Shown in pieces: positions 28,235 through 61,687 of a stretch of DNA of 64,000 nucleotides. The position numbers and the translations under genes were made by a program. Position 1 is the stretch's first letter, and each line of letters begins with the position of its first letter. This stretch comes from a virus (Duplodnaviria; Heunggongvirae; Uroviricota; Caudoviricetes): positions 118,482 through 182,481 of IMG/VR virus record IMGVR_UViG_3300028833_000054, one strand, 5' to 3'. The notes beneath the pieces are model-generated. The model was given only the letters and a program-made list of their open reading frames with translations, had not been told where the DNA came from and did no database searches.

Positions 28235-28242
28235 TATTTATT
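28235..28242 (-). promoter_or_regulatory. T4-late-like promoter AATAAATA
   Basis: Overlaps the stop codon of fibre 1. Confidence 0.4.
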
Positions 28243-41800: not shown

Positions 41801-44800
41801 AACCATCGTTATTTGAACCATTACTCCAATTTGTATGGAAATATGCAAGGCCATATAAGTTATTCGGACTTTTACCATCTGCAGATATAGAATAAGAAGT
41901 TCCTATACTCCAAATATGTCCTAACAACGTTGCATCATAGTAACCATAGTTTCCTGCATTTCTTGTAGAAGTAGAATAAGGTATTATTCTTCCTGTACTA
42001 TCAATAACTAATTTATTGTTTATATTAAGAGTAGTAAAATGTACATCATCAATATAAGCATATTTCCAATACCAAGAAGATGTTCCTATATAGTTATGAC
42101 CACTGCCTGCTCCTCCAGAAGCAGAAGGAAGAATTCCATAAGAAGTATTTGATGTACCAATTTTAACCCAACCATTGGTTGTTCCATCTGCTGGCATAAG
42201 AGTATTGTAGGAATCTGATATTAATGACCAAGTTTTAAGATTTGCTCTTGCGCCTGCAGCAGTTGATGCATCAGTTCCTCCTTTAGAAATAGGAAGAATT
42301 CCTGTTATATTAGATGTAGTAAACTCTGATGATAGAAGAAGAGAATCCCACGTAGAACTCCAAGTTGCAGTATTGTTAGAATAAGACTTATATCTAATAT
42401 ATACTTTATTACTACCATATCCGAAAGCAAGCTGGGTTCCATATCCTGACCATAAATAAGTCAATACACCATAACCACCAGCAGGTCCAGCTCCTGTCCA
42501 AGGAGCATTTGATAATGATGCACCAGTAGTAGGATCTCCTCTACCAGTCAAAGTCATATTTTCAAATGTATTGAAATCATTTGCAGCATTATTAGGAACA
42601 GTAACTTTTTTAAGATATGTTCCGTCAAGAAAAGAAGTATAATTAACAGAATCGAATACTTTTCTCCACGCCTGCCATGTTCCATTGTTTTTTCCTCTTA
42701 CTGCAATTTGTCCTGTTCTGTAATCTTGATAAATTTCTGCAATCCAACTATTACTATATTTGTTTACATATGCTACACCATCAGATATACTATATAAATC
42801 AGATGTTCCTGTTCCATTAACATACCAAATACCTGTATCTAAATCAGAAGATATTGCTAAAGCCGTTGTAGCAGCCGCATTTGTACCTGCCATTCTATAT
42901 GTAGTTTGTGATGGAACACCTGCAGCCAAATATATTGGTCTATCTGCTGCTCCTACATTAGCAGTACCAAGTTTACTGGCTGTAGTAGCAGTTGCTGCAT
43001 TACCAGTTATATTAATTCCCCAAGTTCCTGATGCTCCTCCACCAGTTTTTGTTACAGTGTAAGATGTATAATTAGAAGAATCTAAAAATAATCTTGGTTC
43101 TTCCCATGCAGTAGCAGCAGAATTTCCTCTTCTCCAATACATACCGTCAGCTGTTGCTCTTTGTGCCCATAATTGCCAACCTCTTGATGGATTACCAAAT
43201 GTTAATATTGCTGCATATGTCATACTTGATATGCTTCCAGTCCAAGTACTTCCTCCTCCAGAATATCCTCTTATTCCGCTTTCTGTAATATCTGTTTCTG
43301 TATTTATACCAGTAACATTTAATACATTTGTCGTATTTGAAGCAGTAGCATATGGAACAGTTATATTGTTCGTAGATCCATTTTTGGTCCAGGTTAAGTA
43401 ATTTTCTGAAGTTCCAAGAGCAGTAACAGTTTCAGTTACATCAGTTACTCTATAACGTCCTTCATTTTGATAATAATAACCATCTATTTGATGGAATTGC
43501 TGCCCTCCTTTATATGCAACTTCCCAAGAACCTCCATTTGGATCATTTATATTTAAAACACCAGTATATCCGTTTGCCGTAGTTAATGTTCCCCAAGATG
43601 ATAATGATGTAGTTCCATTATTTGCAAATCCTGCAGAAGTTATAAAACTATGAGAATGACCAGAAGTTGCAAATTCACTAGCATGTTTTCCGTCTAATAA
43701 ATCTGCATTTAATTTTGTAACTACTGTGCTTGAATCTACTGCAAATGGAGCAGTTCCTTGTGCATTTTTAAATGTCTTTGTTCCTGAAATTTCTTCATCT
43801 CCATAAACATGAACAATATCATTATCAGCAACAGACCAATTTCCTATACCTCTACCTAATTCTACTCTTGCATTTCTAATATACCATGTAATAGTATTGC
43901 TATCATTAGTAGTATTTAATCCAAAACAATCATATATAATTAAATCTACTTTATTGGTATTTCTTGTATCTAAATTTGCACCTCCCCAAGATATATTTGT
44001 CCAAACATTTGCTTCTACAGGATTATGATTTATTCCAACGCGGTCAGTGTCATTATCATTTCCGTTCCAAGCAGTTCCTGTTTCTACAGTATTATTTTGG
44101 TCATAACAAATTGTATGCTCACTTGGAAGTAAAATATCAAAGGAAACACGGTAATGATATCCAAAAGGAACTTTTACTTTCCAACCAGCAGAAGACTTTA
44201 TTGATACACCAGATCCATTATAACTTGCAAGGCCGGTTTTTGATACAATTGTATATGTATTTGTTGCATAATCATAAGATACACTTGTACTTGTAGTATT
44301 TTGTAATCCATTTTTTCTTAATAAATTATTTCCAAACAAACGTTCATTTTTGTTAAAATAATTTGAAGAACTTTCATATGCCATTGTTCCAAGCCCTAAA
44401 CTTGTACGTAAAGTAGCTTGTGAAATACTTTTTGCTATTCCTCCTATTGTAGCAGAAACAGGATTTGTAGTGTTTGAAGTTAATGCAGTAAATAATCCGT
44501 TCAAATGCACACCGTCCAATAAATCAGCATCCAATCCGCTTCCGCTTCCATCATTTCCTGAATCCCAAATAGTATATAATCCTGTACCTACAGCATGCTT
44601 TAATCCTGTAGTAGAAGGAGTTTGTAATACTAATGTGTCAGTAGCATCATTATTTACACCTATAACAAGACGATTTAATTCACCAGATGATGCCAAAGTT
44701 GGTTGTGAACCAACTGCACTCTGTGTTGTAGTTCCATAAGGTTGAAATTGTATGAATGCACAATCAGATGGTTTGTTTATACTAGTTTCTCCCTTTTGGC

Positions 44801-48082: not shown

Positions 48083-48114
48083 AAAAAAGAGGCCTTAGAT
48101 TTCTCCAAGACCTC
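48083..48114 (-). terminator. Rho-independent terminator after the giant collagen gene
   Basis: GAGGTCTT...AAGGCCTC stem, then TTTTTT. Confidence 0.7.
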
Positions 48115-48133: not shown

Positions 48134-51100
48134 TTAATCAAATACAAAATCAAGCGATTTCAACGTTGAATTGTATTTTAATGTCAATCCAGTAACAGAA
48201 GAATCTAACTTAAATTCATTAGATATCAATGTTCCTGTGCTTGGAATATATTGTAATTTAGGTGAAGTTACAAAGGCATCGACGTATGCTTGTGTTCCAT
48301 TTCCCCAAGTACCATTTACCCAGACAGGATGATATATTCCAGTTGTTACAGAATTAGTAACTTTAAATTTATCAGTTTGCTTAGCAAAGTAGAATCCATT
48401 TGCAGTTTCAGTAACATTAGATGTACCATCATAATAAGCTTGTACACCGTTTATGTTCTTATAGTACAATTTATATTGTGAACCATTGAGACCCTGTGTA
48501 CCTTGAACACCTTGAGTTCCCTTGTAACCTTGAGTACCTCTATCTCCTCTTGTTCCCTTGTCACCTTGTGTACCCTTATAACCTTGGGTTCCTCTTACAC
48601 CTTGTGTACCCTTATCACCCTGAGTACCTTGCAAACCTCTTGTTCCTTGATAACCTTGTGTACCTTGCAAACCTTGAGTTCCTTGGTTTCCTTGAGTACC
48701 CTTATAACCCTGAGTTCCTCTTACACCTTGAGTACCCTGATTTCCTTGGGTACCTTTATCACCTTGTGTACCCTTGTAGCCTTGAGTTCCTCTTACACCT
48801 TGTGTTCCTTGGTTTCCTTGAGTACCCTTAGAACCTTGTGTACCTGTGTAACCTTGTGTACCTTGCAAGCCTTGTGTACCCTGATTTCCTTGTGTACCCT
48901 TGTAGCCTTGGGTTCCTCTTACACCTTGTGTACCTTGATTTCCTTGTGTTCCCTTGTCTCCTTGAGTACCTTTATAACCCTGAGTTCCACGGACTCCTTG
49001 TGTTCCTTGGTTTCCTTGAGTACCTTTAGAACCTTGTGTGCCTGTGTAACCCTGAGTTCCTCTTACACCTTGTGTACCAATAACACCTTGTGTTCCTTTA
49101 TAACCCTGGGTTCCACGAACACCTTGTGTTCCTTGGTTTCCTTGTGTTCCCTTGTCTCCTTGTGTACCTTTATAACCCTGGGTTCCTCTTACACCTTGTG
49201 TTCCTTGGTTTCCTTGTGTACCTTTAGAACCTTGTGTGCCAGTATAACCTTGTGTACCAATCAAACCTTGTGTTCCTTGGTTTCCTTGAGTACCCTTATA
49301 ACCTTGGGTTCCTCTTACACCCTGTGTTCCCTGATTTCCTTGAGTACCTTTAGAACCTTGTGTACCTGTGTAACCCTGTGTTCCTCTTACACCTTGTGTA
49401 CCCTTGTCACCTTGTGTGCCCTTAAAGCCTTGAGTACCAGTATATCCTTGAGTACCAATCAAACCTTGAGTACCTTGGTTTCCTTGAGTTCCCTTATAAC
49501 CTTGAGTTCCTCTTACACCCTGAGTTCCCTTGTCACCTTGTGTACCTTTACTTCCTTGAGTTCCGGTATATCCTTGGGTACCTAAAACTCCCTGAGTGCC
49601 TTTATCTCCTTGTGTACCTTTGTAACCTTGTGTACCAGTGTATCCTTGAGTTCCTTGGAGACCTTGAGTTCCCTTGTCTCCCTGGGTTCCCTTGTAACCC
49701 TGAGTTCCGCGGGCACCTTGTGTTCCCTTGTCTCCCTGGGTTCCTTTACTTCCTTGAGTTCCTGTATAACCCTGAGTACCAAGCAATCCCTGAGTGCCTT
49801 TATCTCCTTGTGTACCCTTATATCCCTGAGTACCTACATAGCCTTGTGTTCCTTGGAGACCCTGTGTTCCTTTATCTCCTTGAGTTCCTTTGTAACCCTG
49901 GGTTCCTCTTACACCTTGTGTGCCTGTATCTCCTTGAGTTCCCTTGCTTCCTTGAGTACCTGTATAACCTTGGGTTCCTATCAATCCCTGAGTTCCCTTG
50001 TCTCCTTGGGTACCTTTATATCCTTGAGTACCAACATATCCTTGAGTTCCTTGAAGGCCTTGAGTTCCCTTGTCTCCCTGGGTTCCCTTATAACCTTGGG
50101 TTCCACGAACTCCCTGTGTACCAGTATCTCCTTGAGTACCCTTAGAACCTTGTGTACCAGTATATCCTTGGGTACCTAGCAAACCTTGAGTTCCTTTGTC
50201 TCCCTGCGTACCCTTGTAACCTTGTGTACCAACATATCCTTGAGTTCCCTGTGAACCTTGAGTACCCTTAGAACCTTGAGTGCCAGTATATCCTTGAGTA
50301 CCTTGAAGACCTTGAGTTCCCTTGTCTCCCTGGGTTCCTTTATCACCTTGGGTTCCAGTGTAACCCTGTGTACCTAAAACTCCTTGGGTTCCCTTATCTC
50401 CTTGTGTACCTTTATATCCTTGGGTTCCTACATAACCTTGTGTACCAAGCAATCCCTGGGTTCCTTTATCACCTTGGGTGCCTTTATAACCTTGAGTTCC
50501 CTGTGAACCTTGAGTACCTTTATCTCCCTGAGTGCCTTTATCACCTTGGGTTCCTGCATAACCCTGAGTACCAAGAAGCCCCTGAGTTCCCTTGTCACCT
50601 TGGGTTCCTTTGTAACCCTGTGTACCTACATAGCCTTGTGTTCCTTGAGAACCCTGAGTACCCTTGTCACCTTGTGTACCAGTGTATCCTTGAGTACCTT
50701 GAAGACCTTGTGTACCCTTATCACCTTGGGTTCCCTTATCTCCTTGTGTACCAGTATATCCCTGTGTACCAAGTACTCCTTGAGTTCCTTTATCACCTTG
50801 AGTACCCTTATATCCTTGAGTACCTACATATCCTTGTGTACCCAACAAACCCTGGGTTCCCTTATCACCTTGAGTGCCTGTATATCCTTGGGTTCCTTGA
50901 AGACCTTGAGTACCTTTATCACCTTGTGTACCCTTGTCACCTTGTGTACCAGTGTAACCTTGTGTACCTAAAACTCCCTGAGTGCCTTTATCACCCTGAG
51001 TTCCGGTATAACCTTGTGTACCTGTATATCCTTGGGTTCCTTGAAGACCTTGTGTACCCTTGTCTCCTTGTGTACCAGTATAACCTTGTGTACCTTGAAG

Positions 51101-54100
51101 ACCTTGAGTTCCCTTGTCTCCCTGGGTTCCTTTATCACCTTGTGTACCTGTATAACCTTGGGTTCCTATCAATCCTTGAGTACCCTTGTCTCCTTGAGTA
51201 CCCATATAACCCTGGGTTCCAGTATAGCCTTGAGTTCCTTGAAGACCTTGTGTTCCTTTATCACCCTGAGTTCCGGTATAACCTTGTGTACCTAAAACTC
51301 CTTGTGTACCTTTGTCTCCTTGTGTTCCCTTGTCACCTTGAGTACCTGTATATCCTTGGGTACCGAGTACTCCCTGTGTGCCTTTATCTCCTTGTGTACC
51401 TTGATAACCTTGAGTACCTGTATATCCCTGTGTTCCGGTATCACCTTGAGTACCCTTGTCACCTTGAGTTCCAGTATAGCCTTGGGTTCCTTGTAAGCCT
51501 TGAGTTCCCTTGTCACCCTGTGTTCCCTTATCGCCTTGGGTTCCAGTATAACCTTGAGTACCAATAAGTCCCTGGGTTCCTTTATCACCTTGAGTACCAG
51601 AATATCCTTGGGTTCCTGTATAACCTTGTGTTCCAGTGTCACCTTGAGTTCCTTTATCTCCTTGTGTACCTGTATAACCTTGAGTTCCCTGAAGACCCTG
51701 AGTACCCTTGTCTCCTTGTGTTCCAGTGTCACCTTGAGTACCAGTATATCCTTGTGTACCCAACAATCCTTGGGTACCCTTATCGCCTTGAGTTCCAGTA
51801 TAACCTTGTGTACCTATATAACCTTGGGTTCCAGTATCACCCTGTGTTCCCTTATCGCCTTGGGTTCCTGTATAACCCTGTGTTCCTTGAAGACCTTGAG
51901 TGCCTGTGTCTCCTTGCGTACCTTTGTCACCCTGAGTTCCGGTATATCCTTGAGTACCCAATAATCCCTGAGTACCCTTATCACCCTGTGTACCTGTATA
52001 ACCCTGAGTTCCGGTATATCCTTGTGTTCCTGTGTCTCCTTGTGTACCTTTGTCTCCTTGAGTGCCTTGATAACCTTGAGTTCCAAGAACTCCTTGGGTT
52101 CCTGTATCACCTTGTGTACCCTTGTCACCTTGGGTTCCTGTATAACCTTGAGTTCCCTGAAGACCCTGAGTACCCTTGTCTCCTTGTGTACCAGTATATC
52201 CTTGGGTTCCCGTATAACCTTGGGTTCCAGTATCACCTTGTGTACCTTTATCACCTTGAGTTCCGGTATAACCTTGAGTTCCTATCAATCCCTGTGTTCC
52301 GGTGTCTCCTTGGGTTCCTTTATCACCTTGAGTACCTGTATAACCTTGGGTTCCAAGAACTCCTTGAGTTCCTTTATCACCTTGGGTACCCTGATAACCC
52401 TGTGTACCTACATAACCTTGAGTTCCTGTATCTCCTTGAGTACCTTTGTCTCCTTGGGTTCCCATATAACCTTGAGTACCAATTTCACCCTGTGTGCCAG
52501 TGTCGCCCTGTGTACCCTTGTCACCTTGAGTTCCGGTATAACCTTGCGTTCCTATCAATCCTTGAGTTCCTTGGTCTCCTTGAGTACCCTGATAACCTTG
52601 GGTTCCAGTATAGCCTTGTGTACCTGTGTCACCTTGTGTACCTTTATCACCTTGGGTTCCAGTATAACCTTGTGTACCAATTTCACCTTGGGTACCTTTA
52701 TCTCCTTGAGTACCAGTATCACCTTGTGTACCTGTATAACCTTGAGTACCTAACAATCCTTGAGTTCCGGTGTCACCTTGTGTTCCTTGATAACCCTGTG
52801 TACCTACATAACCTTGAGTACCAATCTCTCCTTGGGTTCCAGTATCACCCTGGGTTCCCATATAACCTTGTGTGCCAATTTCTCCCTGAGTTCCCTTGTC
52901 ACCCTGGGTTCCCTTGTCACCTTGAGTTCCCATGTATCCTTGAGTACCAAGCAATCCTTGTGTACCCATATCACCCTGAGTTCCAGTATATCCCTGTGTA
53001 CCTACATAACCCTGAGTACCAATCTCTCCTTGGGTTCCAGTATCACCTTGAGTACCCATATAACCTTGGGTACCGATTTCACCTTGAGTACCTGTATCTC
53101 CCTGAGTTCCCTTGTCGCCTTGGGTTCCTATATAACCTTGTGTTCCTTGGTCTCCTTGTGTACCTTTATCACCTTGGGTTCCCATGTAACCCTGAGTACC
53201 GATTTCACCTTGAGTTCCAGTATCTCCTTGAGTACCCTTGTCTCCCTGAGTACCCATATAACCTTGGGTTCCGATTTCACCTTGTGTGCCGGTATCACCT
53301 TGTGTACCCTTGTCACCTTGGGTTCCCATATATCCTTGAGTACCTATCTCGCCTTGGGTTCCCATATCACCCTGTGTACCAGTGTAACCTTGGGTACCAG
53401 TGTAACCTTGAGTACCAATTTCACCCTGTGTGCCAGTGTCGCCTTGTGTACCCATGTAACCTTGAGTACCTATTTCTCCTTGGGTACCTTCAACTCCTTG
53501 AGTACCAGTATCTCCCTGAGTACCCATATAACCTTGAGTACCTATTTCGCCCTGAGTTCCTGTATCTCCCTGAGTACCCATATAACCTTGGGTACCGATT
53601 TCACCCTGTGTTCCTTCAACACCTTGGGTTCCGGTATCACCTTGTGTTCCCATGTAACCTTGAGTACCGATTTCACCCTGTGTTCCTTCAACACCTTGGG
53701 TACCAGTATCTCCTTGAGTTCCTGTATAACCTTGTGTACCTATTTCTCCTTGAGTTCCTTCAATACCCTGTGTTCCATCATATCCTTGAGTACCTTCAAC
53801 TCCCTGAGTACCTTCAACTCCTTGAGTTCCTTCAACACCCTGTGTTCCATCATAGCCTTGAGTACCAATTTCACCTTGTGTACCAGTGTCACCCTGGGTT
53901 CCGGTATATCCTTGAGTACCTTCATAACCTTGTGTGCCCTCAATTCCTTGAGTGCCTTCTAAACCTTGTGTACCATCATAACCTTGAGTACCGATTTCAC
54001 CTTGTGTACCTTCAGTGCCTTGAGTTCCGTAAAATCCTTGAGTACCCTCATATCCTTGTGTACCTTCGGCTCCCTGTGTACCTTCTGTACCTTGGGTTCC

Positions 54101-57100
54101 ATCATATCCTTGTGTACCAATTTCTCCTTGGGTACCTGTATCTCCTTGAGTACCGTAAAATCCCTGGGTTCCTTCATAACCTTGAGTTCCTTCAGTACCT
54201 TGTGTACCATCTAAGCCTTGAGTACCCTCATATCCTTGGGTTCCTTCTGTTCCCTGCGTTCCTTCAATACCTTGTGTACCTTCTGTGCCTTGGGTTCCTT
54301 CATATCCTTGTGTACCCTCAGGGCCTTGTGTTCCTTCAATGCCTTGGGTTCCTTCTGTTCCTTGTGTACCTTCATATCCTTGAGTACCGATTGAACCTTG
54401 TGTACCTTCAGGACCAGGTTCTCCTTCATATCCTTGAGTACCAATAGAACCTTGTGTACCTTGCTCTCCTGGCAAACCATCAACACCTTGTACACCATCT
54501 ACTCCTTGAGCACCTGGTAAACCTTGTGTACCGATAACACCTTGTGTACCTTCATATCCTTGTGAACCACCTGGGTCACCTTGTGCTCCTCTTGTACCGG
54601 TTGCTCCTTGGAATCCAGTAGGACCTCTTGTTCCTTCAAGACCTTGTGTACCTTCTGCACCTTGTGTACCGGGCTCACCATGAGTACCAATCGTTCCCAT
54701 CAATCCTCTTGGACCGATGTCACCTTGTGTACCTTTATCTCCTTGTTTTCCTTGTGTACCAATTGGTCCTCTTGTTCCTTCTGCACCTTGAGTTCCATCA
54801 TCTCCTTGGAATCCAGTAGGACCTCTATATCCTTGTGTACCTTGATTTCCTTGAGTACCTACAGTTCCTTGCAATCCCTGTGTTCCGATTGTACCCTGAG
54901 TTCCATAATGACCCTGTGTGCCAACATAACCCTGAGTACCAGGAGTACCTTCACCTCCTTGGGTACCAACTGTTCCTTGAGTTCCATAATGACCCTGTGT
55001 ACCAACATAACCCTGAGTACCAGGAGTACCCTCTTCACCTTGAGTTCCGATTGTACCTTGAGTTCCATAATGACCTTGTGTACCAGTAAATCCTTGAGTA
55101 CCGTCAGTTCCTTGCAATCCTTGTGTACCAATTGTACCCTGGGTTCCTATTACACCTTGTGTACCTATTGTACCTTGTGTACCTATTGTACCTTCTTCAC
55201 CTTGAGCACCTCTAGAACCACGAAGACCTTGTGTACCTTCTTCACCTTGGGTTCCTTGGTCTCCTTGTGTACCTTTTTCTCCTTGGGTTCCTTCAATACC
55301 TTGGGTTCCTATAACTCCTTGTGTTCCTTGGTCTCCTTGAGTACCTTTGTCACCTTGAGTACCGAAAACACCTTGTGTACCAAATATACCTTGAGTACCA
55401 AATACTCCCTGAGTTCCAATTTCACCCTGTGTACCAAATACACCTTGAGTACCGAAAATACCTTGAGTACCGAAAATACCTTGTGTACCAAATACACCTT
55501 GAGTTCCTTGTTCTCCTTGAGTTCCCTTGTCACCTTGTGTACCTGTTATGCCTTGGGTTCCTATCAATCCTTGTGTTCCTTGGTCTCCTTGAGTTCCTTT
55601 GTCTCCTTGAGTACCTATTGTACCTTGTGTTCCGTCAGAACCTTGGGTTCCTATCAATCCTTGTGTTCCGTCAGGACCTTGAGTTCCAATAACTCCTTGA
55701 GTACCTTCAACACCTTGTGTTCCATCATATCCTTGTGTACCAACTTCACCTTGTGTACCTTTTTCTCCCTGGCTTCCTATAACACCTTGTGTTCCGTCAG
55801 GACCTTGAGTTCCAATAACTCCTTGGGTTCCATCATAACCTTGTGTACCAAAACTACCTTGAGTACCCAAATTTCCTTGAGTACCGTCAAAGCCCTGAGT
55901 ACCTATTACTCCTTGTGTACCAATTTCACCCTGTGTACCAGTGTGTCCTTGTGTTCCAGTATATCCCTGTGTACCAACTTCACCTTGTGTACCGATTGTG
56001 CCTTGTGCACCTTCATAACCTTGTGTACCAATTTCACCTTGAGTTCCTTGATTTCCTTGTGAACCTATTGTACCCTGAGTTCCATCATAACCCTGTGAAC
56101 CAACAACACCCTGAGTTCCGTCATAACCCTGTGAACCTCTTACTCCTTGAACACCGTCATATCCTTGTGTACCAATTATACCTTGTGTTCCCTGGTCACC
56201 TTGTGAACCAACAGCTCCTTGAGTACCATCATAACCTTGTGTACCAAATGTTCCTTGTGAACCTATATAACCTTGTGAACCGTAATAACCTTGAGAACCT
56301 ACAATACCTTGTGTACCTATTGTTCCTTGTGGTCCTTGTTCACCTTGTGTTCCATAATAACCCTGTGAACCAACTTCACCTTGAGCACCTATTGTTCCTT
56401 GGGTTCCTTCATATCCTTGTGTACCAACATAACCTTGAGTTCCGAAATGACCTTGTGAACCGTATGTACCTTGTGTACCGTCATAACCTTGTGTTCCTAT
56501 TGGACCACGTTCACCTTCATAACCCTGAGAACCTACAACACCTTGTGCACCATCATAACCTTGCGTACCAATTATACCTTGTGTTCCATAATGACCTTGA
56601 GAACCTACAGTACCCTGAGTACCATCATATCCTTGTGTACCGACTGTACCTTGTGAACCAATATAACCTTGTGTTCCATAGTAACCTTGTGAACCTTCAA
56701 TACCTTGAGTACCAATTGTACCCATAGTACCAAATATACCTTGAGTACCTTCATAACCTTGTGAACCCAAAGGACCCTGTGTACCTTCAATACCTTGTAC
56801 ACCGATAGTTCCTTGTGTTCCTTCATATCCTTGTGTTCCTTGGTCACCTTGTGAACCAATATATCCTTGTGAACCGATTATACCTTGACTACCTTCATAT
56901 CCTTGTGTACCTGCAGTACCCTGAGTACCCCAAGGACCACGTTCACCTTCATAACCTTGTGTACCGATAGTACCCTGTGAACCAATATAACCTTGTGTTC
57001 CTAAAGGACCTTGTTCACCTTCATAACCTTGTGAACCTCTTTCACCTTGAATACCAATTGTTCCTTGTGTTCCTTCTGGGCCTTGTGAACCTATATAACC

Positions 57101-58114
57101 TTGTGAACCTACAATACCTTGACTACCTTCATAACCTTGTGTACCCCAACTTCCTTGAGTACCAAACGGACCAATTTCTCCTTCATAACCTTGAGTACCA
57201 CGAGAACCTTGAATACCTTGCTCACCTTGTGTACCAGCAGGACCAATTGTACCTATCAATCCTTGTGTACCAATTGTTCCTTCTTCACCTTGTGTTCCAC
57301 GATAACCTTGAGTACCATAACTTCCTTGAGTACCTCTCAAACCAGTAGGACCATAATCACCTTGTGTACCTATGACACCTTGTGTACCTTGTGTTCCATA
57401 ATGACCTTGTGTACCAGTAAATCCTTGAGTACCTGGAGTACCTTCACCACCTTGTGTACCAATTTCACCTTGTGAACCACGATAACCTTGTGTACCTTCA
57501 ATACCTTGTGAACCCCAATCTCCTTGAGCTCCTTTTTCTCCTTGAGCTCCTTGTTCACCTTGTGTACCTTCAAATCCTTGTGAACCGACTTCACCTTGTG
57601 TACCAATAGTACCTCTCTGTCCTTGAGTACCAATGTTGCCCTGGGTTCCAAAGTTTCCTTGAGAACCTACAACACCTTGTGTACCCCATAATCCTTGAGT
57701 TCCTATTGAGCCTTGAGAACCTTGCTCTCCTTGTGTGCCAACAGGGCCTTGAGTACCTGCAATACCTTGTGTACCAATGTTGCCTTGAGCTCCTCTAGAA
57801 CCAATTGAACCTTGAGAACCTCTAACACCTTGTGTACCTATGACACCTTGTGTACCAAATCTACCTTGAGTACCCCAGTTTCCTTGTGTTCCTGGTAAAC
57901 CAGTTTCACCTCTAAGACCTTGTGTACCAAATAAACCTTGAGTACCTATTAAACCTTGAATACCATCTTTCCAACCGATAGGAAATCCTCCTAGCATTAC
58001 TCTACCAGTGCCTAAATCAACAAATGCACCGTCAAAAATACTGCTATCTTTTAGAATTTCCCATTCTCCTTGTGAGCCATGATAAAATTGAACAAGTGAT
58101 GAGTCAATAGCCAT
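48134..58114 (-). CDS. Giant collagen-like fibre protein (3326 aa)
   Basis: Residues 51-3213 are Gly-X-Y, mostly GTQ-Gxx hexads; short non-collagen N- (50 aa) and C- (113 aa) domains. Confidence 0.92.
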   Translation of the reverse strand: MAIDSSLVQFYHGSQGEWEILKDSSIFDGAFVDLGTGRVMLGGFPIGWKDGIQGLIGTQGLFGTQGLRGETGLPGTQGNWGTQGRFGTQGVIGTQGVRGSQGSIGSRGAQGNIGTQGIAGTQGPVGTQGEQGSQGSIGTQGLWGTQGVVGSQGNFGTQGNIGTQGQRGTIGTQGEVGSQGFEGTQGEQGAQGEKGAQGDWGSQGIEGTQGYRGSQGEIGTQGGEGTPGTQGFTGTQGHYGTQGTQGVIGTQGDYGPTGLRGTQGSYGTQGYRGTQGEEGTIGTQGLIGTIGPAGTQGEQGIQGSRGTQGYEGEIGPFGTQGSWGTQGYEGSQGIVGSQGYIGSQGPEGTQGTIGIQGERGSQGYEGEQGPLGTQGYIGSQGTIGTQGYEGERGPWGTQGTAGTQGYEGSQGIIGSQGYIGSQGDQGTQGYEGTQGTIGVQGIEGTQGPLGSQGYEGTQGIFGTMGTIGTQGIEGSQGYYGTQGYIGSQGTVGTQGYDGTQGTVGSQGHYGTQGIIGTQGYDGAQGVVGSQGYEGERGPIGTQGYDGTQGTYGSQGHFGTQGYVGTQGYEGTQGTIGAQGEVGSQGYYGTQGEQGPQGTIGTQGIVGSQGYYGSQGYIGSQGTFGTQGYDGTQGAVGSQGDQGTQGIIGTQGYDGVQGVRGSQGYDGTQGVVGSQGYDGTQGTIGSQGNQGTQGEIGTQGYEGAQGTIGTQGEVGTQGYTGTQGHTGTQGEIGTQGVIGTQGFDGTQGNLGTQGSFGTQGYDGTQGVIGTQGPDGTQGVIGSQGEKGTQGEVGTQGYDGTQGVEGTQGVIGTQGPDGTQGLIGTQGSDGTQGTIGTQGDKGTQGDQGTQGLIGTQGITGTQGDKGTQGEQGTQGVFGTQGIFGTQGIFGTQGVFGTQGEIGTQGVFGTQGIFGTQGVFGTQGDKGTQGDQGTQGVIGTQGIEGTQGEKGTQGDQGTQGEEGTQGLRGSRGAQGEEGTIGTQGTIGTQGVIGTQGTIGTQGLQGTDGTQGFTGTQGHYGTQGTIGTQGEEGTPGTQGYVGTQGHYGTQGTVGTQGGEGTPGTQGYVGTQGHYGTQGTIGTQGLQGTVGTQGNQGTQGYRGPTGFQGDDGTQGAEGTRGPIGTQGKQGDKGTQGDIGPRGLMGTIGTHGEPGTQGAEGTQGLEGTRGPTGFQGATGTRGAQGDPGGSQGYEGTQGVIGTQGLPGAQGVDGVQGVDGLPGEQGTQGSIGTQGYEGEPGPEGTQGSIGTQGYEGTQGTEGTQGIEGTQGPEGTQGYEGTQGTEGTQGIEGTQGTEGTQGYEGTQGLDGTQGTEGTQGYEGTQGFYGTQGDTGTQGEIGTQGYDGTQGTEGTQGAEGTQGYEGTQGFYGTQGTEGTQGEIGTQGYDGTQGLEGTQGIEGTQGYEGTQGYTGTQGDTGTQGEIGTQGYDGTQGVEGTQGVEGTQGVEGTQGYDGTQGIEGTQGEIGTQGYTGTQGDTGTQGVEGTQGEIGTQGYMGTQGDTGTQGVEGTQGEIGTQGYMGTQGDTGTQGEIGTQGYMGTQGDTGTQGVEGTQGEIGTQGYMGTQGDTGTQGEIGTQGYTGTQGYTGTQGDMGTQGEIGTQGYMGTQGDKGTQGDTGTQGEIGTQGYMGTQGDKGTQGDTGTQGEIGTQGYMGTQGDKGTQGDQGTQGYIGTQGDKGTQGDTGTQGEIGTQGYMGTQGDTGTQGEIGTQGYVGTQGYTGTQGDMGTQGLLGTQGYMGTQGDKGTQGDKGTQGEIGTQGYMGTQGDTGTQGEIGTQGYVGTQGYQGTQGDTGTQGLLGTQGYTGTQGDTGTQGDKGTQGEIGTQGYTGTQGDKGTQGDTGTQGYTGTQGYQGTQGDQGTQGLIGTQGYTGTQGDKGTQGDTGTQGEIGTQGYMGTQGDKGTQGDTGTQGYVGTQGYQGTQGDKGTQGVLGTQGYTGTQGDKGTQGDTGTQGLIGTQGYTGTQGDKGTQGDTGTQGYTGTQGYTGTQGDKGTQGLQGTQGYTGTQGDKGTQGDTGTQGVLGTQGYQGTQGDKGTQGDTGTQGYTGTQGYTGTQGDKGTQGLLGTQGYTGTQGDKGTQGDTGTQGLQGTQGYTGTQGDKGTQGDTGTQGYIGTQGYTGTQGDKGTQGLLGTQGYTGTQGDTGTQGDKGTQGLQGTQGYTGTQGDKGTQGDTGTQGYTGTQGYSGTQGDKGTQGLIGTQGYTGTQGDKGTQGDKGTQGLQGTQGYTGTQGDKGTQGDTGTQGYTGTQGYQGTQGDKGTQGVLGTQGYTGTQGDKGTQGDKGTQGVLGTQGYTGTQGDKGTQGLQGTQGYTGTQGYMGTQGDKGTQGLIGTQGYTGTQGDKGTQGDKGTQGLQGTQGYTGTQGDKGTQGLQGTQGYTGTQGYTGTQGDKGTQGVLGTQGYTGTQGDKGTQGDKGTQGLQGTQGYTGTQGDKGTQGLLGTQGYVGTQGYKGTQGDKGTQGVLGTQGYTGTQGDKGTQGDKGTQGLQGTQGYTGTQGDKGTQGSQGTQGYVGTQGYKGTQGDKGTQGLLGTQGYAGTQGDKGTQGDKGTQGSQGTQGYKGTQGDKGTQGLLGTQGYVGTQGYKGTQGDKGTQGVLGTQGYTGTQGDKGTQGDKGTQGLQGTQGYTGTQGSKGTQGSQGTQGYVGTQGYKGTQGDKGTQGLLGTQGYTGTQGSKGTQGDTGTQGVRGTQGYKGTQGDKGTQGLQGTQGYVGTQGYKGTQGDKGTQGLIGTQGYTGTQGSKGTQGDTGTQGVRGTQGYKGTQGDKGTQGLQGTQGYVGTQGYKGTQGDKGTQGLLGTQGYTGTQGSKGTQGDKGTQGARGTQGYKGTQGDKGTQGLQGTQGYTGTQGYKGTQGDKGTQGVLGTQGYTGTQGSKGTQGDKGTQGVRGTQGYKGTQGNQGTQGLIGTQGYTGTQGFKGTQGDKGTQGVRGTQGYTGTQGSKGTQGNQGTQGVRGTQGYKGTQGNQGTQGLIGTQGYTGTQGSKGTQGNQGTQGVRGTQGYKGTQGDKGTQGNQGTQGVRGTQGYKGTQGVIGTQGVRGTQGYTGTQGSKGTQGNQGTQGVRGTQGYKGTQGDKGTQGNQGTQGVRGTQGYKGTQGNQGTQGLQGTQGYTGTQGSKGTQGNQGTQGVRGTQGYKGTQGDKGTQGNQGTQGVRGTQGYKGTQGNQGTQGLQGTQGYQGTRGLQGTQGDKGTQGVRGTQGYKGTQGDKGTRGDRGTQGYKGTQGVQGTQGLNGSQYKLYYKNINGVQAYYDGTSNVTETANGFYFAKQTDKFKVTNSVTTGIYHPVWVNGTWGNGTQAYVDAFVTSPKLQYIPSTGTLISNEFKLDSSVTGLTLKYNSTLKSLDFVFD
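48476..57964 (-). repeat. Coding tandem repeat (9/18-bp period; 198-bp super-period locally)
   Basis: GGN ACN CAR alternating with GGN NNN NNN. Confidence 0.95.
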
Positions 58115-58135
58115 TTAGATTTTAAACATTTTCAT
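58115..58135 (-). other. Mini-uORF MKMFKI* abutting the collagen start (TAA ATG)
   Basis: ATG AAA ATG TTT AAA ATC TAA; the ATG is 6 nt after the promoter box. Confidence 0.5.
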
Positions 58136-58140: not shown

Positions 58141-58148
58141 TATTTATT
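58141..58148 (-). promoter_or_regulatory. T4-late-like promoter AATAAATA
   Basis: Followed by TAAAAATGA. Confidence 0.65.
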
Positions 58149-58164
58149 AGAATAAAACAAATAA

Positions 58165-58188
58165 GGAGATTTGCTTAAGCAAATCTCC
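58165..58188 (-). terminator. Terminator hairpin between the two collagen genes
   Basis: Perfect 24-bp palindrome GGAGATTTGCTTAAGCAAATCTCC, then TTATTTGTTTT. Confidence 0.75.
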
Positions 58189-58208
58189 CAATTTTATAAA
58201 ATTTCAAT

Positions 58209-60218
58209 TTAATTTAATTTAGATTCGAGGTCTTCTATTCTCCAGATAAGTTTTTTGATTACTTCATAGAGATTGTCTAACTCAGAAATTGTAGGATTAG
58301 ATATCATTGTATTGCTGAATCCTGTCATTTTGACTTTATCTCCTGTTATTTCTCCAACAGGTCCTGGAACTCCTTGTGCTCCTTGTTCACCTTGTGTTCC
58401 TCTTGGTCCTTGAGGTCCTTGTGTTCCTCTTTGTCCAACAGGTCCTTGTGCACCAGGATAACCTACTTCACCTCTAAGACCTTGAGTACCTTGCTCTCCT
58501 TGTGGACCTCTTGCTCCTTCCTCACCCGGTTCACCTTGTGCTCCTCTGTAACCTTGTGGACCTCTTTCGCCTGGAGCACCTTGCTCTCCACTGTAACCTC
58601 TTTCTCCTCTTGGTCCTTGCTCTCCTTGTGGTCCCATAGGTCCAGGATTTCCTTGTGGTCCTCTGTCACCAGTTTCACCTTTTTCTCCTCTTTCACCTTT
58701 AAGACCTTGTGTTCCTTGGTCACCGATTGTTCCTCTTGGTCCTTGAACACCTTCTGCTCCTCTTGGTCCTTGAACTCCAACAGGACCTTGGAATCCAACA
58801 GGACCTCTAACTCCCTGTGAACCTTCAACTCCTTGTGTACCAAATATTCCTTGTGTACCAAATACTCCTTGCGGTCCTCTTGGACCTATTGCTCCGATAG
58901 TTCCTCTTTCTCCTTGAGTTCCTTGCTCACCTTGAAGACCCTGAGTTCCTTGCTCTCCTCTTGTACCATCAAATCCTTGTGTACCGACTGCGCCTTGTGT
59001 ACCTTCAAGACCTTGTGAACCATATTCACCTTGAGCACCTACAATACCCTGAGTACCTCTTACTCCTTGTGGTCCTCTATCTCCTTGTGGTCCTTGTTCA
59101 CCCTGTGCACCAGGAAGACCAACAGGGCCTCTCAATCCGATTGGACCAGGTTCACCTTTAAGACCTTGTGTTCCAATTGTTCCTCTATCTCCTTGTGGTC
59201 CTTTTTCACCTTGTGGTCCTTGTTCACCTTGGTCTCCTTGTGGTCCTTTAGGACCCTGGTCTCCTTCAAGACCAGTTGTACCTATATGACCCTGAGGACC
59301 TCTGTCTCCTTGTGGTCCTTTGTCTCCAAGATAACCAGTTTCACCACGAGGTCCTTTATCTCCTTGTGGTCCCTTATCTCCCTTTGGACCTTGCGGGCCA
59401 ACTACTCCTTGTGGTCCTTGCTCACCCGTTGGTCCTTGGAATCCCATAGGTCCTCTTAATCCTTGTGGTCCTTGATTTCCTTCTGGTCCTTGTTCACCTT
59501 TCAATCCTTGAGCTCCCATTGGACCTTGTTCACCACGTTCTCCTCTCAAACCTTGAGAACCTTCATAACCTTGAGTACCTGCAACACCTTGTATTCCATA
59601 AGGGCCTTGTGGTCCTTCTGGTCCTTGTGGTCCTTCAATTCCTCTGCTACCAATTTCACCTTGAGTACCTTGTTCACCTTGTGTACCCTGGAATCCGTAT
59701 GTTCCTCTTGGTCCTTGAGGTCCTTCTATACCTTGTGTACCTTGTTCTCCTTGTGCTCCTTGAAATCCTCTTGCTCCTCTGATTTGTCCCTTCTCTACTT
59801 TTTTCATGATTTTGACAATCATATCATGCAAAGTATGAATAGTGTAATATTCGGAATCTAAATTAATATCCAAATCAGATTCTACTTCTTTCTTTGCACC
59901 AAGAATTCCAGCTGATTTTGAAAGAGAAGCATTTCTTGTCAAATTCAAAGGTGCACCTGCACCAAGAAGTTCGTCCCAAACTACTTCTCCACTTGCTTCA
60001 TCAACTGCTCCGAGAACTTTCAACAATTCAGAAGCTCTTCCTATAGATTCACCATTTGTTCCATCACTTGTTGGGAATATAAAAATTGCATCTTCTTTTA
60101 TTGCTGCAATTTTATTCAAAATGATTGCTTTACCTACAGTATCAAGAGCTTTATAATCTACTATATCTTGGGCTGTTACTTTATAAAACTGTGGAATATT
60201 TGTTATTTCTTCAGCCAT
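58209..60218 (-). CDS. Collagen-like protein 2 (669 aa)
   Basis: 159 uninterrupted Gly-X-Y triplets (res 148-624, GPQ-rich); C-terminal heptad LYEVIKKLIWRIEDLESKLN. Confidence 0.9.
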   Translation of the reverse strand: MAEEITNIPQFYKVTAQDIVDYKALDTVGKAIILNKIAAIKEDAIFIFPTSDGTNGESIGRASELLKVLGAVDEASGEVVWDELLGAGAPLNLTRNASLSKSAGILGAKKEVESDLDINLDSEYYTIHTLHDMIVKIMKKVEKGQIRGARGFQGAQGEQGTQGIEGPQGPRGTYGFQGTQGEQGTQGEIGSRGIEGPQGPEGPQGPYGIQGVAGTQGYEGSQGLRGERGEQGPMGAQGLKGEQGPEGNQGPQGLRGPMGFQGPTGEQGPQGVVGPQGPKGDKGPQGDKGPRGETGYLGDKGPQGDRGPQGHIGTTGLEGDQGPKGPQGDQGEQGPQGEKGPQGDRGTIGTQGLKGEPGPIGLRGPVGLPGAQGEQGPQGDRGPQGVRGTQGIVGAQGEYGSQGLEGTQGAVGTQGFDGTRGEQGTQGLQGEQGTQGERGTIGAIGPRGPQGVFGTQGIFGTQGVEGSQGVRGPVGFQGPVGVQGPRGAEGVQGPRGTIGDQGTQGLKGERGEKGETGDRGPQGNPGPMGPQGEQGPRGERGYSGEQGAPGERGPQGYRGAQGEPGEEGARGPQGEQGTQGLRGEVGYPGAQGPVGQRGTQGPQGPRGTQGEQGAQGVPGPVGEITGDKVKMTGFSNTMISNPTISELDNLYEVIKKLIWRIEDLESKLN

Positions 60219-60988: not shown

Positions 60989-61687
60989 ATGAGCACTATA
61001 AAGCAAGATAGAAAAGATCTTGAGATGCTTTTAAATGGAATTACTCCAATTGAAGGAACGAGTCCAAGCCCGACACCTTCTCAATCAACACTTGTCCAGA
61101 GCCCTGCTTCTCAACCGCAGCAATCTGTGATAGACAATGCAGGTTCTGAAATAGGAGTCGAGAAAGTGTTTGAATTTAATTACGAGTCAATAAGGAAAGG
61201 CCTCCGTAAAAAGGCGCGAAAGACTGTACTTAATATTGCCAATCATATTCTTACTGAAGATATGGTGGAGGAGGATTATGTACAAGATAAGATTGAACAG
61301 GACATTGAGACTTTGACTGATTTGTACATGCAAGTTGAAACAAACACTTTAATGCAGCAAGCACTTGTCAGTACAGTTTCAAAAGGAAATCTTATGCCAA
61401 GATATTTTGAAGTATTCGGACAGCTTACTGAAAAGATATCAGCACTGAACAAACAAGTAGTAGGAACTGAACAGACAATCAGAAAAACCTATCTTGATTT
61501 GAAATTTGAAATAAGAGATAAGAAAGAAGAAGAGATGAATACAAGTGGAAATCTTGTTCTTGGTACAACACAACCAACAAATACAGGAACACTTGTAACA
61601 TCATCTCTTGATTTGATTGCAAAAGCAAAAGCTAAACACCGTGAAGCACTTGAAGCTGCAAAAGAAACTACATTTACTGAAGAATGA
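60989..61687 (+). CDS. Terminase small subunit (T4 gp16-like)
   Basis: MPRYFEVFGQLTEKISALNKQ matches the gp16 PRx(Y/F)EV.xQL helix motif; near terL. Confidence 0.65.
   Translation: MSTIKQDRKDLEMLLNGITPIEGTSPSPTPSQSTLVQSPASQPQQSVIDNAGSEIGVEKVFEFNYESIRKGLRKKARKTVLNIANHILTEDMVEEDYVQDKIEQDIETLTDLYMQVETNTLMQQALVSTVSKGNLMPRYFEVFGQLTEKISALNKQVVGTEQTIRKTYLDLKFEIRDKKEEEMNTSGNLVLGTTQPTNTGTLVTSSLDLIAKAKAKHREALEAAKETTFTEE

What the first reader, a model, noticed from the sequence alone, without database searches (positions are those of the whole stretch)
48134..58114. Giant proline-poor collagen with 1054 Gly-X-Y triplets
Seen: residues 51-3213 are Gly-X-Y, dominated by GTQ alternating with a variable triplet, with very little Pro and tiny terminal domains. 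Known: the triple-helix rise is about 0.29 nm per residue and vertebrate type I collagen has about 1014 helical residues (about 300 nm). Inference: an appendage near 0.9 um, about three times type I collagen and longer than typical virions. It could be a tether or whisker for mucus retention or long-range host capture. How a Thr/Gln-based helix is stabilised (H-bonding, glycosylation) is open.
Basis: partly seen in the sequence, partly recalled or inferred. Interest (0 to 1): 0.75.

Follow-up and report, generated by a model that had tools for sequence, protein, structure and literature searches.

The report
Giant proline-poor collagen-like phage fibre
A 364-kb phage from the sheep gut carries a real, conserved gene for a 3,326-residue protein that is almost entirely collagen-type Gly-X-Y triplets without the usual collagen stabilisers. 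It is most likely a thread-like virion fibre up to about 0.9 micrometre long, ending in a tail-fibre-type tip.

Summary
ORF 48134-58114 (minus strand) encodes 3,326 aa with 378 + 676 = 1,054 Gly-X-Y triplets (residues 51-3213). One extra Gly at residue 1185 is the only break. GTQ makes up 456 triplets, Pro is 0.9%, and there are no KGD or KGE motifs.

It is unlikely to be an assembly artefact:
- Every 55-mer in the gene is unique.
- Contig depth in the probable source run matches the flanks.
- Synonymous sites between repeats are near saturation (48% identity) while the repeats stay 92% identical as protein.
- Most strain differences are synonymous.

The gene lies in a late fibre cluster of a T4-like jumbo phage. 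It has its own late-promoter-like motif and is bracketed by terminator-like hairpins.

The 113-aa C-terminal domain is homologous to the C-terminal module of phage-tail-repeat fibres. A trimer model of it passed its controls. In 3 of 3 contexts a gene with this module is followed by a double Laminin_G_3 protein.

Best reading (0.6): a trimeric collagen-like virion fibre whose tip carries, or is assembled with, a lectin-like adhesin. Virion attachment, helix stability at 39 °C and glycosylation are untested.

This scan has already reported similar giant proline-free collagen fibres in lake jumbo phages. This is a gut variant with a different composition.

The parts
58141..58148 (-). Late-promoter-like motif AATAAATA, 26 nt upstream of the start codon
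   Evidence: The same motif sits just upstream of most neighbouring minus-strand genes. Its count in the window is not above chance (12 found against 14.6 expected), so the argument rests on position only.
58164..58189 (-). Terminator-like hairpin (11 pairs plus T-run) between the upstream collagen gene and this gene
57965..58114 (-). N-terminal non-collagen domain, residues 1-50; presumed virion-attachment end
   Evidence: No Pfam or PHROG match. Conserved in relatives L005 and L021. The attachment role is inferred.
54563..57964 (-). Collagen run 1, residues 51-1184: 378 triplets, more varied, holds most of the few prolines, acidic
54560..54562 (-). Single extra Gly (residue 1185), the only break in the Gly-X-Y register; possible hinge
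   Evidence: The hinge role is inferred.
48476..54559 (-). Collagen run 2, residues 1186-3213: 676 triplets with strict GTQ/GXY alternation, a 22-triplet (66-aa) super-repeat, and net charge running from acidic to basic towards the C-terminus
48137..48475 (-). C-terminal domain, residues 3214-3326: a tail-fibre-type terminal module (YHPVWVNG ... IPSTG ... SLDFVF); predicted trimer
   Evidence: No Pfam or PDB sequence match.
48089..48114 (-). Terminator-like hairpin (11 pairs plus T-run) 20 nt after the stop codon
46206..48050 (-). Downstream gene P0003, 614 aa, with two Laminin_G_3 (ConA-like lectin) domains; candidate tip adhesin or assembly partner
   Evidence: It is the only double LamG gene in the 364-kb genome. 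A homologous LamG gene directly follows fibres with the same C-terminal module in L017 and L018.
58209..60218 (-). Upstream gene P0002, 669 aa: a second, ordinary proline-containing collagen-like fibre (159 triplets) with a 147-aa N-terminal domain and a short C-terminal helical tail
   Evidence: Pfam Collagen 9e-80; PHROG tail-fibre families. Conserved next to the giant gene in L005 and L021.

Best explanation
The gene encodes the shaft of a very long, thin, homotrimeric collagen-type fibre of a ruminant-gut jumbo phage.

Proposed working:
- Three 329-kDa chains are brought into register by the 113-residue C-terminal module.
- The triple helix then zips towards the N-terminus, giving a flexible thread of up to about 0.9 um.
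- The 50-residue N-terminal domain anchors the thread to the virion. The site (tail, neck, baseplate or head) is unknown.
- The distal C-terminal module carries, or is assembled with, the lectin-like double Laminin_G_3 protein encoded next door.
- The fibre widens the capture radius of the particle for host cells or glycan-rich surfaces.
- The acid-to-base charge gradient may keep the shaft extended and make its far end sticky for anionic surfaces.

Shown:
- the sequence anatomy;
- purifying selection on the frame;
- the fibre-cluster context;
- homology of the C-terminal module;
- the recurring LamG neighbour.

Supported by a model only: the trimer.

Inferred: virion attachment, tip adhesin, extended conformation, function.
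For: The gene is real:
- 1,054 Gly-X-Y triplets and Pfam Collagen E 1e-130 to 1e-167.
- All 55-mers are unique and the longest exact internal repeat is under 55 nt.
- In run X1 (sheep gut, 0.96 of the sampled words) the contig pieces fit with 0 differences. Their depth is 16-28 inside the gene against about 27 in the flanks.
- 32 of the 36 best-supported strain differences inside the gene (table 3; 460 further differences not shown) are synonymous.
- Relative L005 (terminase large subunit, TerL, 94% identical) shares the first 588 aa at 98.5%, with 32 synonymous and 9 non-synonymous codon changes.
- Neighbouring 66-aa super-repeats are 92% identical as protein but only 48% identical at third codon positions.
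- A more distant relative, L021, keeps the same gene order and N-terminus.

Fibre context:
- The genome has TerL, a clamp loader and an exonuclease.
- The gene sits in a run of minus-strand giant genes. These include two with a shared N-terminus, a BspA-type leucine-rich-repeat (LRR) protein, the LamG protein and a second collagen that matches PHROG tail-fibre families.

C-terminal module:
- It is homologous to the termini of PF12789 'phage tail repeat' fibres: whole-library E 1.7e-4 (P0010) and 4.7e-4 (P0011), pairwise 3e-13.
- Trimer model of residues 3163-3326 x 3: score 0.87, best of 3 controls 0.00. That mark was reached by 21 of 30 proteins solved as pairs of one chain and by 0 of 23 solved as single chains. 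The runs agree in at least 81% of contacts and partner pLDDT is at least 74.
- The calibration used two copies, not three. Solved collagen helices may help the shaft part pass from memory. The lowest-error contacts, however, lie in the C-terminal domain.

LamG pairing:
- It is found in 3 of 3 module-bearing fibres (the window, L017, L018), with a conserved LamG N-terminus.
- P0003 is the only double LamG gene in the genome.

Expression signals:
- A late-promoter-like motif lies upstream and two 11-pair terminator-like hairpins bracket the gene.
- Two sheep-gut metatranscriptome runs of one study hold 0.79 and 0.69 of the gene's sampled words.
Against: - There is no virion proteomics or imaging.
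- The N-terminal domain has no detectable relatives outside this lineage, so the attachment site is unknown.
- The shaft lacks both known stabilisers of non-hydroxylated collagens. Pro is 1.7% at X and 0.9% at Y, with none in residues 1401-3200, and there are no KGD or KGE motifs.
- From my own recollection of host-guest peptide work (Persikov et al. 2000), Thr at X is among the less favourable residues. A full helix at rumen temperature is therefore not assured.
- No glycosyltransferase lies beside the gene and no GT9 heptosyltransferase is in the genome. The five GT2 genes lie 36 kb or more beyond the window's end and their targets are unknown.
- Only one full-length assembly exists. Every relative's contig breaks inside the gene.
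- One relative has an in-frame TAA between the shaft and the C-terminal domain.
- The LamG pairing rests on three contexts, two of which have related modules.
Confidence: 0.6

Rival explanations
1. The chain is made but is only partly triple-helical, or not at all, at 39 °C. It then acts as a flexible, hydrated polymer tether or brush rather than a 0.9-um rod, with an end-to-end distance far below its contour length.
For: Almost no Pro, no KGD/KGE pairs, and Thr at 47% of X positions. No glycosylating enzyme lies next to the gene. The only structural support is a model of the last 17 triplets plus the C-terminal domain.
Against: Glycine is kept at every third residue over 3,163 positions with one exception. 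The X and Y residues of each super-repeat are held at 92% identity while synonymous sites are near saturation. That is far stricter than a disordered linker would need. Papers describe proline-poor bacterial collagens as stabilised by hydration networks (PMC8968730). The modelled trimer includes the shaft residues 3163-3213 in its interface.
Confidence: 0.15
2. The protein is a triple-helical fibre but is not part of the virion. It could be released at lysis or displayed by the infected cell as a matrix, net or decoy.
For: No evidence places it in particles. The N-terminal domain matches no known virion-attachment domain.
Against: There is no signal peptide-like N-terminus. The C-terminal module is shared with phage tail-repeat fibres. 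The gene sits among fibre-type late genes beside the terminase and a weak gp25-like gene.
Confidence: 0.1
3. The length or repeat order is an assembly artefact, and the true gene is much shorter or arranged differently.
For: Only one full-length copy is known. All related contigs end inside the gene. Logan contigs (k = 31) of every run are fragmented across it.
Against: All 55-mers are unique, so assembly with k of 55 or more is unambiguous. The source-run pieces fit with 0 differences and flank-like depth, so there is no sign of collapsed copies. The repeats differ by about 21-29% at DNA level in a smooth gradient along the gene. Fragments 95-99% identical from three other studies tile much of the gene from about 48.1 to 58.2 kb.
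Confidence: 0.05
4. The Gly-X-Y repeats fold back into a compact polyglycine-II or polyproline-II helix bundle, as in snow-flea antifreeze protein or the phage S16 gp38 adhesin, and not into an extended collagen helix.
For: Those folds also use Gly-rich tripeptide repeats (my own knowledge, not tested here).
Against: There are no turn or loop segments for 676 and 378 consecutive triplets. Bulky residues (Gln, Tyr, Lys, Leu) occupy both X and Y, which does not suit tight packing of such helices. The modelled interface is a three-chain shaft.
Confidence: 0.03

Closest known systems
Prophage collagen-like side-tail-fibre proteins of E. coli O157:H7 (EPclA/EPclB; Ghosh et al. 2012, PMC3368898)
   Same: A phage-encoded trimer with a collagen stalk between small globular N- and C-terminal domains. 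It is unhydroxylated and proposed to act in host attachment.
   Different: EPclA reaches about 62 nm when extended; this shaft would be about 900 nm. In EPclPs Pro is 48% at X, charged residues are abundant, aromatics are absent, and Thr and Gln at X are about 0.1% each. Here Thr is 47% and Tyr 14% at X, Gln is 53% at Y and Pro under 2%. The PfN and PfC domains were not detected.
Phage-tail-repeat (Pfam PF12789) fibres with the same C-terminal module (metagenomic P0010, P0139, P0011)
   Same: A homologous C-terminal module of about 75 residues ending in SLDFxF, followed directly by a double Laminin_G_3 gene with a conserved N-terminus.
   Different: Their shafts are 200-700 residues of non-collagen repeats. 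Here the shaft is 3,163 residues of collagen triplets. The family has no name, structure or tested function.
BclA of the Bacillus anthracis/cereus exosporium nap
   Same: A proline-poor, Thr-rich, non-animal collagen-like filament with a C-terminal trimerising domain. Thr glycosylation is a known stabiliser in that system (cited in PMC11923368).
   Different: In Gram-positive bacterial collagens Thr dominates the Y position (PMC8968730, PMC3368898), and from my own knowledge BclA's repeats are GPT-type with Pro at X. Here Thr is at X. BclA has tens to hundreds of triplets (my own knowledge). No C1q-like domain was detected here. BclA is a spore protein, not a virion protein.
Phage T4 fibritin (wac) whiskers
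   Same: The proposed working is alike: a trimeric fibre with an N-terminal virion anchor and a small C-terminal registration domain (own knowledge).
   Different: Fibritin is an alpha-helical coiled coil of about 50 nm. No sequence similarity was seen in the Pfam or PHROG scans.
Giant proline-free collagen-like fibres of lake jumbo phages reported earlier in this scan (e1-5342792, e1-5340797, e1-5322174)
   Same: Fibre genes of 3,000-4,100 residues with 900-1,270 nearly unbroken, almost proline-free triplets in jumbo phages, and a predicted length near 1 um (unchecked AI notes).
   Different: Those shafts are uncharged Gly-Ser/Thr-Ser/Thr or Gly-Thr-Asn and sit beside a TibC/Aah-type protein glycosyltransferase. 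This one alternates GTQ with charged and aromatic triplets, has a charge gradient, comes from the ruminant gut, and has no GT9 gene in its genome.
Animal collagens with long helices (human type VII; vent-worm cuticle collagen)
   Same: Very long triple-helical domains. The worm collagen is stabilised by glycosylated Thr (cited in PMC11923368).
   Different: Type VII has a 1,380-residue helix, the longest among human collagens (PMC11923368). The 23 interruptions that paper gives are for collagen type IV, not type VII. This shaft has 3,163 residues with one break. In the vent-worm collagen the glycosylated Thr occupies the helix-stabilising positions that hydroxyproline fills in other collagens (title of Mann et al. 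1996, cited in PMC11923368), not X.

Membership tests
Collagen triple-helix repeat (Pfam PF01391) | Gly at every third residue over long runs | tested here: met
   378 + 676 uninterrupted triplets.
Collagen triple-helix repeat (Pfam PF01391) | Profile score above the curated cut-off (27.2 bits) | tested here: met
   424-544 bits for three parts of the protein.
Collagen triple-helix repeat (Pfam PF01391) | Three chains forming a triple helix | tested here: inconclusive
   The trimer model of the last 17 triplets plus the C-terminal domain scored 0.87 against a best control of 0.00. The mark was reached by 21 of 30 solved one-chain pairs and 0 of 23 single chains; run agreement was at least 81% and pLDDT at least 74. 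This is a model only and could pass from memory of solved collagen helices. CD and melting are needed.
Collagen triple-helix repeat (Pfam PF01391) | Usual stabilisers of the helix: Pro or Hyp at X/Y, or Lys-Gly-Asp/Glu salt bridges (characteristic, not strictly defining) | tested here: not met
   Pro is 1.7% at X and 0.9% at Y, with none in residues 1401-3200. KGD = 0 and KGE = 0.
EPclA-type prophage collagen-like tail fibres | Phage fibre N (PF08400) and phage fibre C (PF06820) or Phage_fiber_2 (PF03406) domains flanking the collagen region | tested here: not met
   No Pfam family matched residues 1-56 or 3210-3326, even at E up to 10.
EPclA-type prophage collagen-like tail fibres | Collagen stalk between small globular end domains, encoded in a phage structural module | tested here: met
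Fibres with the SLDFxF C-terminal module (unnamed; includes PF12789 proteins) | Homologous C-terminal module at the very end of the protein | tested here: met
   Whole-library E 1.7e-4 (P0010) and 4.7e-4 (P0011); BLASTP 3e-13 to P0139, 44% identity over 77 residues; 10 invariant columns.
Fibres with the SLDFxF C-terminal module (unnamed; includes PF12789 proteins) | Directly followed by a double Laminin_G_3 gene with N-terminus M-[SA]-L-x-V-W-L-P-L | tested here: met
   Window P0003, L017 7992-10259 and L018 4754-6712. Identities are 31% (BLASTP, L017) and 26% (BLASTP, L018), E 1e-19 and 2e-27.
Fibres with the SLDFxF C-terminal module (unnamed; includes PF12789 proteins) | Shaft built of 'phage tail repeat' units (PF12789) | tested here: not met
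   Only Collagen is found in the shaft.
BclA-type exosporium collagen-like glycoproteins | Thr at the Y position, and a C1q/TNF-like C-terminal domain | tested here: not met
   Thr is 47% at X and 8% at Y. The C-terminal domain has no Pfam or PDB sequence match.
BclA-type exosporium collagen-like glycoproteins | O-glycosylated Thr in the collagen region | not testable with these tools
   Five GT2 genes exist elsewhere in the genome, but their targets are unknown.

The most novel reading that the evidence does not exclude
The shaft is a stable triple helix about 0.9 um long at 39 °C that uses neither proline/hydroxyproline nor Lys-Asp/Glu salt bridges. It would be held instead by a regular Thr(X)/Gln(Y) hydrogen-bond or hydration ladder, or by Thr glycosylation, repeated every second triplet. 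That would be a new way of stabilising collagen. It would also be one of the longest near-uninterrupted collagen helices known in a virus. Its built-in acid-to-base charge gradient, together with a lectin tip, would let a phage reach for hosts several particle lengths away.
Probability: 0.3. Interest if true: 0.8.

Novelty: new variant of a known kind. Interest (0 to 1): 0.62.

Why it matters
Collagen-like stalks in phage fibres are known, but they are tens of nanometres long and rich in proline and charge pairs.

**Collagen chemistry.** This shaft has 3,163 residues and one break. It contains an 1,800-residue stretch with no proline at all, no KGD/KGE motifs, and a strict GTQ-GXY hexad. If it folds, it is a natural test of what minimally holds a triple helix together. 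It could also serve as a template for hydroxylation-free designer collagens.

**Phage biology.** A thread several times longer than the particle would change how adsorption in viscous, particle-rich gut contents is pictured.

**Fibre modules.** The recurring pairing of the C-terminal module with a double LamG protein points to an undescribed fibre-tip cassette shared by otherwise different fibres.

**Metagenomics.** The gene also shows why such proteins are missed. Every related assembly breaks inside it.

Tried and rejected
Searches that found nothing:
- Megablast of 18 kb of flanking DNA against deposited phages: no match.
- Related loci in viral contigs using the C-terminal domain and P0003: none.
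- P0003 in metagenome contigs: none.
- Full-length relatives sharing the N-terminal 56 residues: none among proteins of 1,829-5,820 aa. Gene length in relatives therefore could not be surveyed.

Whole-protein homology search:
- It returned mainly animal collagen VII, by composition.
- The few metagenomic giants (P0014, P0046, P0080, P0090, P0095, P0096, P0103) have unrelated termini and 220-495 triplets.
- They are not orthologues. The search scored only 8,000 candidates, so it is no census.

Domain and fold searches:
- Pfam and PHROGs on both terminal domains: nothing.
- PDB sequence profile search with the C-terminal alignment: only chance-level hits.
- AlphaFold monomer models were too poor to search with: C-terminal domain pLDDT 43, P0003 pLDDT 34. 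No fold search was run.
- The ESM Atlas feature search gave only viral collagen and tail clusters below 0.9, which are leads only.
- N-termini of the two collagen proteins compared: no similarity.

Enzymes sought in the phage genome:
- GT9 heptosyltransferase, the type found beside the lake-phage fibres: absent.
- Transglutaminase for possible Gln-Lys cross-links: absent.

Sequencing runs:
- The 'joints' all have sides under 30 nt or lie at repeat ends. I read them as k = 31 repeat artefacts, not alternative structures.

Other:
- Distant relatives L006 and L009 (TerL 59% and 45% identical) have no collagen gene beside the terminase.
- TAG recoding was considered because of a CUA suppressor tRNA. 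The standard code already gives dense coding, and this gene has no in-frame stop.
Full report
**Observation.** The window has one open frame at 48134-58114 on the minus strand, 3,326 codons long under the standard bacterial code.
- Residues 51-1184 and 1186-3213 are unbroken Gly-X-Y: 378 and 676 triplets, 1,054 together. A single extra Gly at residue 1185 separates them.
- GTQ makes up 456 triplets.
- At X, Thr is 47%, Tyr 14%, Asp 10% and Pro 1.7%. At Y, Gln is 53%, Lys 10%, Thr 8% and Pro 0.9%.
- The ends are 50 and 113 residues long.
- Pfam Collagen scores are 424-544 bits against a cut-off of 27.

Several results argue against it.
- The DNA repeats are far from perfect. Tandem Repeats Finder sees periods of 198 and 396 nt at 76-77% match. 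The longest exact internal repeat is under 55 nt, and every 55-mer is unique. The 456 GTQ triplets are written with 20 different 9-mers.
- A sheep-gut run (X1) that holds 96% of the sampled words is probably the source. Its contig pieces lie on the gene with no differences, at depth 16-28 against about 27 in the flanks. Nothing suggests collapsed copies.
- Pieces 95-99% identical from goat-gut and two other gut studies tile much of the gene.
- Of the 36 best-supported strain differences inside the gene (one search's table 3; 460 further differences were not shown), 33 fall on third codon positions and 32 are synonymous.
- A close relative in another sample (L005, terminase large subunit TerL 94% identical) shares the first 588 residues at 98.5%, with 32 synonymous and 9 non-synonymous codon changes.
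- A more distant relative (L021, neighbouring gene 82% identical) has the same gene order and a conserved N-terminus.
- Neighbouring 66-residue super-repeats are 92% identical as protein and 79% as DNA, with third positions only 48% identical. The repeats are therefore old and each is kept by selection. This is not a recent expansion or an assembler's duplication.

The weak point remains. This is the only full-length copy found, because every related contig ends inside the gene.

**Genome context.** The window lies in a 363,991-bp single-contig virus record with 34.9% G+C.
- The two contig ends overlap by about 165 nt apart from an A-run length difference, as expected for a closed or terminally redundant genome.
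- It encodes a large terminase, a clamp loader, an exonuclease and 46 tRNAs, including three tRNA-Gly, four tRNA-Thr and two tRNA-Gln.
- Earlier notes of this scan call it a T4-like jumbo phage, probably of Prevotella. I did not test the host.
- The collagen gene sits in an unbroken run of minus-strand genes from 28241 to 60218:
  - two giants of 3,053 and 2,442 aa with the same N-terminal 48 residues;
  - a BspA-type leucine-rich-repeat (LRR) protein;
  - a 614-aa protein with two Laminin_G_3 domains (P0003);
  - the 3,326-aa collagen;
  - a 669-aa proline-containing collagen (P0002) that matches many PHROG tail-fibre families.
- On the other strand follow a weak gp25-like gene and the terminase.

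This is a fibre and adhesin cluster.

**Expression signals.** The gene has AATAAATA 26 nt before its start codon, as most genes of the cluster do. The two strongest terminator-like hairpins of the region bracket it, at 58164-58189 and 48089-48114. Two sheep-gut metatranscriptome runs of one study hold 79% and 69% of the gene's sampled words. I could not lay them, so transcription is likely but not shown.

**Anatomy of the shaft.**
- Run 1 (residues 51-1184) is varied, acidic and holds most of the few prolines.
- Run 2 is a strict alternation of GTQ with a variable triplet. It is organised in a 22-triplet (66-residue) super-repeat with four Tyr per unit.
- The variable triplets drift smoothly along the chain, from Glu-rich (YE, TE, IE) through DK/DT to YK, VR, SK and NQ.
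- Net charge per 200 residues therefore runs from -30 at residues 1201-1400 to +17 at 3001-3200.
- Residues 1401-3200 contain no proline. The whole protein has no KGD or KGE motif. These are the salt-bridge triplets that PMC11923368 reports as a widespread kinetic stabiliser.
- Published position tables for viral collagens give Thr 3.1% at X and Gln 13% at Y, and report no aromatics in EPclPs (PMC3368898). This composition is far outside that range.
- If fully helical, the shaft would measure 0.90-0.92 um.

**The C-terminal domain and its neighbour.** The last 113 residues match no Pfam family and no solved structure by sequence.
- An exhaustive HMMER search of 1.84 billion representatives found two fragmentary orthologues. 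It also found, at 35-44% identity, the C-terminal ends of metagenomic fibre proteins.
- Those proteins carry 'phage tail repeat' or lower-baseplate-type N-terminal domains (PF12789, BppL_N). Ten alignment columns are invariant, and pairwise BLASTP gives 3e-13.
- Three copies of residues 3163-3326 were modelled. The score was 0.87 and the best of three controls 0.00. That mark was reached by 21 of 30 proteins solved as pairs of one chain and by 0 of 23 solved as single chains. The runs agree in at least 81% of contacts and partner pLDDT is at least 74.
- Two caveats apply. The calibration used two copies, not three. Solved collagen helices may let the shaft part pass from memory. The most confident contacts, however, lie within residues 3249-3302 of the globular module.
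- A poor monomer model (pLDDT 43) is compatible with an intertwined, obligate trimer, but it proves nothing.
- In each of the three contexts where a fibre ends in this module, the next gene encodes a protein with two Laminin_G_3 domains and a conserved N-terminus (M-[SA]-L-x-V-W-L-P-L). These are the window, L017 and L018, with gaps of 83, 12 and 9 nt.
- A related fibre without the module lacks such a neighbour.
- P0003 is the only double LamG gene in the 364-kb genome.

I infer a module-partner pair.

**Mechanism.** I think the most likely sequence is as follows.
- The C-terminal module trimerises and sets the register.
- The helix propagates towards the N-terminus, as PMC11923368 describes for collagens in general.
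- The N-terminal 50 residues dock on the particle.
- The far end presents the lectin-like LamG protein, or the module itself, to glycans on host cells or on gut particles.
- The extra Gly at residue 1185 may act as a hinge.
- The basic distal third may favour contact with anionic surfaces.

Only the anatomy, the selection, the context and the homologies are shown. The rest is inference (confidence 0.6).

**Rivals.**
- A partly unfolded tether (0.15).
- A product that is not part of the virion (0.10).
- An assembly artefact (0.05).
- A compact polyglycine-II-type bundle (0.03).

How the helix would be stabilised stays open. Papers describe hydration networks of polar residues (PMC8968730) and glycosylated Thr (PMC11923368). 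The phage has five GT2 genes elsewhere. None is adjacent, and it has no GT9 heptosyltransferase or transglutaminase.

**Comparison with what is known.**
- The closest described proteins are the prophage collagen-like side-tail fibres EPclA and EPclB (PMC3368898). The architecture and proposed role are the same, but their end domains were not detected here. Their stalks are at least ten times shorter, proline-rich and charge-paired.
- By its C-terminal module the protein belongs with an unnamed set of tail-repeat fibres, but its shaft differs from theirs.
- BclA shares the proline-poor, Thr-rich theme, but Thr is in the other position there.
- T4 fibritin is only a functional analogue.
- Hair-like appendages on heads or tails of jumbo phages are documented (PMC13282480). 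That review does not mention collagen.
- This scan has already reported giant proline-free collagen-like fibres in lake jumbo phages. Those are unchecked notes on other DNA. They are uncharged Gly-Ser/Thr shafts beside a protein heptosyltransferase.
- The present case differs in habitat, in its GTQ-GXY hexad with Tyr and a charge gradient, and in lacking that enzyme.

I class it as a new variant of a known kind.

**Score.** Interest is 0.62. The gene is real, extreme and well defined, and it offers a direct bench test of collagen stability rules. The kind of object is known, however. Parallel cases exist within this scan. Function and structure are still unproven.

Noticed in passing
window 28241-37402 and 38814-46142 (minus strand): Two giant Thr/Ser/Gly-rich proteins (3,053 and 2,442 aa) share the same first 48 residues and near-identical upstream promoter regions. 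They look like alternative fibres for one docking site. Neither has a Pfam match.
   Followed up: partly
window 58209-60218 (minus strand); L021 9971-12343: The neighbouring ordinary collagen-like fibre gene varies in length between relatives: 159 triplets here against 196 in L021.
   Followed up: partly
L001 and L002 (ENA contigs from two samples): In a relative whose C-terminal domain is 63% identical, an in-frame TAA sits exactly between the collagen shaft and that domain. The domain then starts with its own ATG. This could be a split gene, read-through or a defect.
   Followed up: partly
G000 270507-270578 (outside the window): A tRNA with anticodon CUA (amber suppressor type) lies within a 46-gene tRNA array. 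TAG still ends 19 of 278 long frames, and the standard code gives dense coding, so general recoding is not evident.
   Followed up: partly
window 58115-58135 (minus strand): A six-codon mini-ORF (MKMFKI) lies between the late-promoter-like motif and the collagen start. Its TAA abuts the ATG.
   Followed up: no
window 23703-25073 (minus strand): A phage-encoded UDP-glucose/GDP-mannose dehydrogenase (three Pfam domains), 23 kb from the collagen gene. It could supply sugar precursors.
   Followed up: no
window 37465-38796 (minus strand): A 443-aa protein with BspA-type leucine-rich repeats sits between the two giant paralogues.
   Followed up: no
window 61684-62055 (plus strand): A 123-aa protein with a weak, sub-threshold match to baseplate wedge gp25 lies directly before the terminase gene.
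   Followed up: no
G002 (IMG/VR 316-kb relative), L016 4430-11395: A distant relative (TerL 45% identical) has, elsewhere in its genome, a 2,322-aa protein with several short proline-free GTS/GSS collagen-like runs.
   Followed up: partly
G000, both contig ends: The first 126 nt recur exactly 167 nt before the end, and the match resumes after an A-run of different length. The record is probably a closed genome although it is classed as linear.
   Followed up: yes
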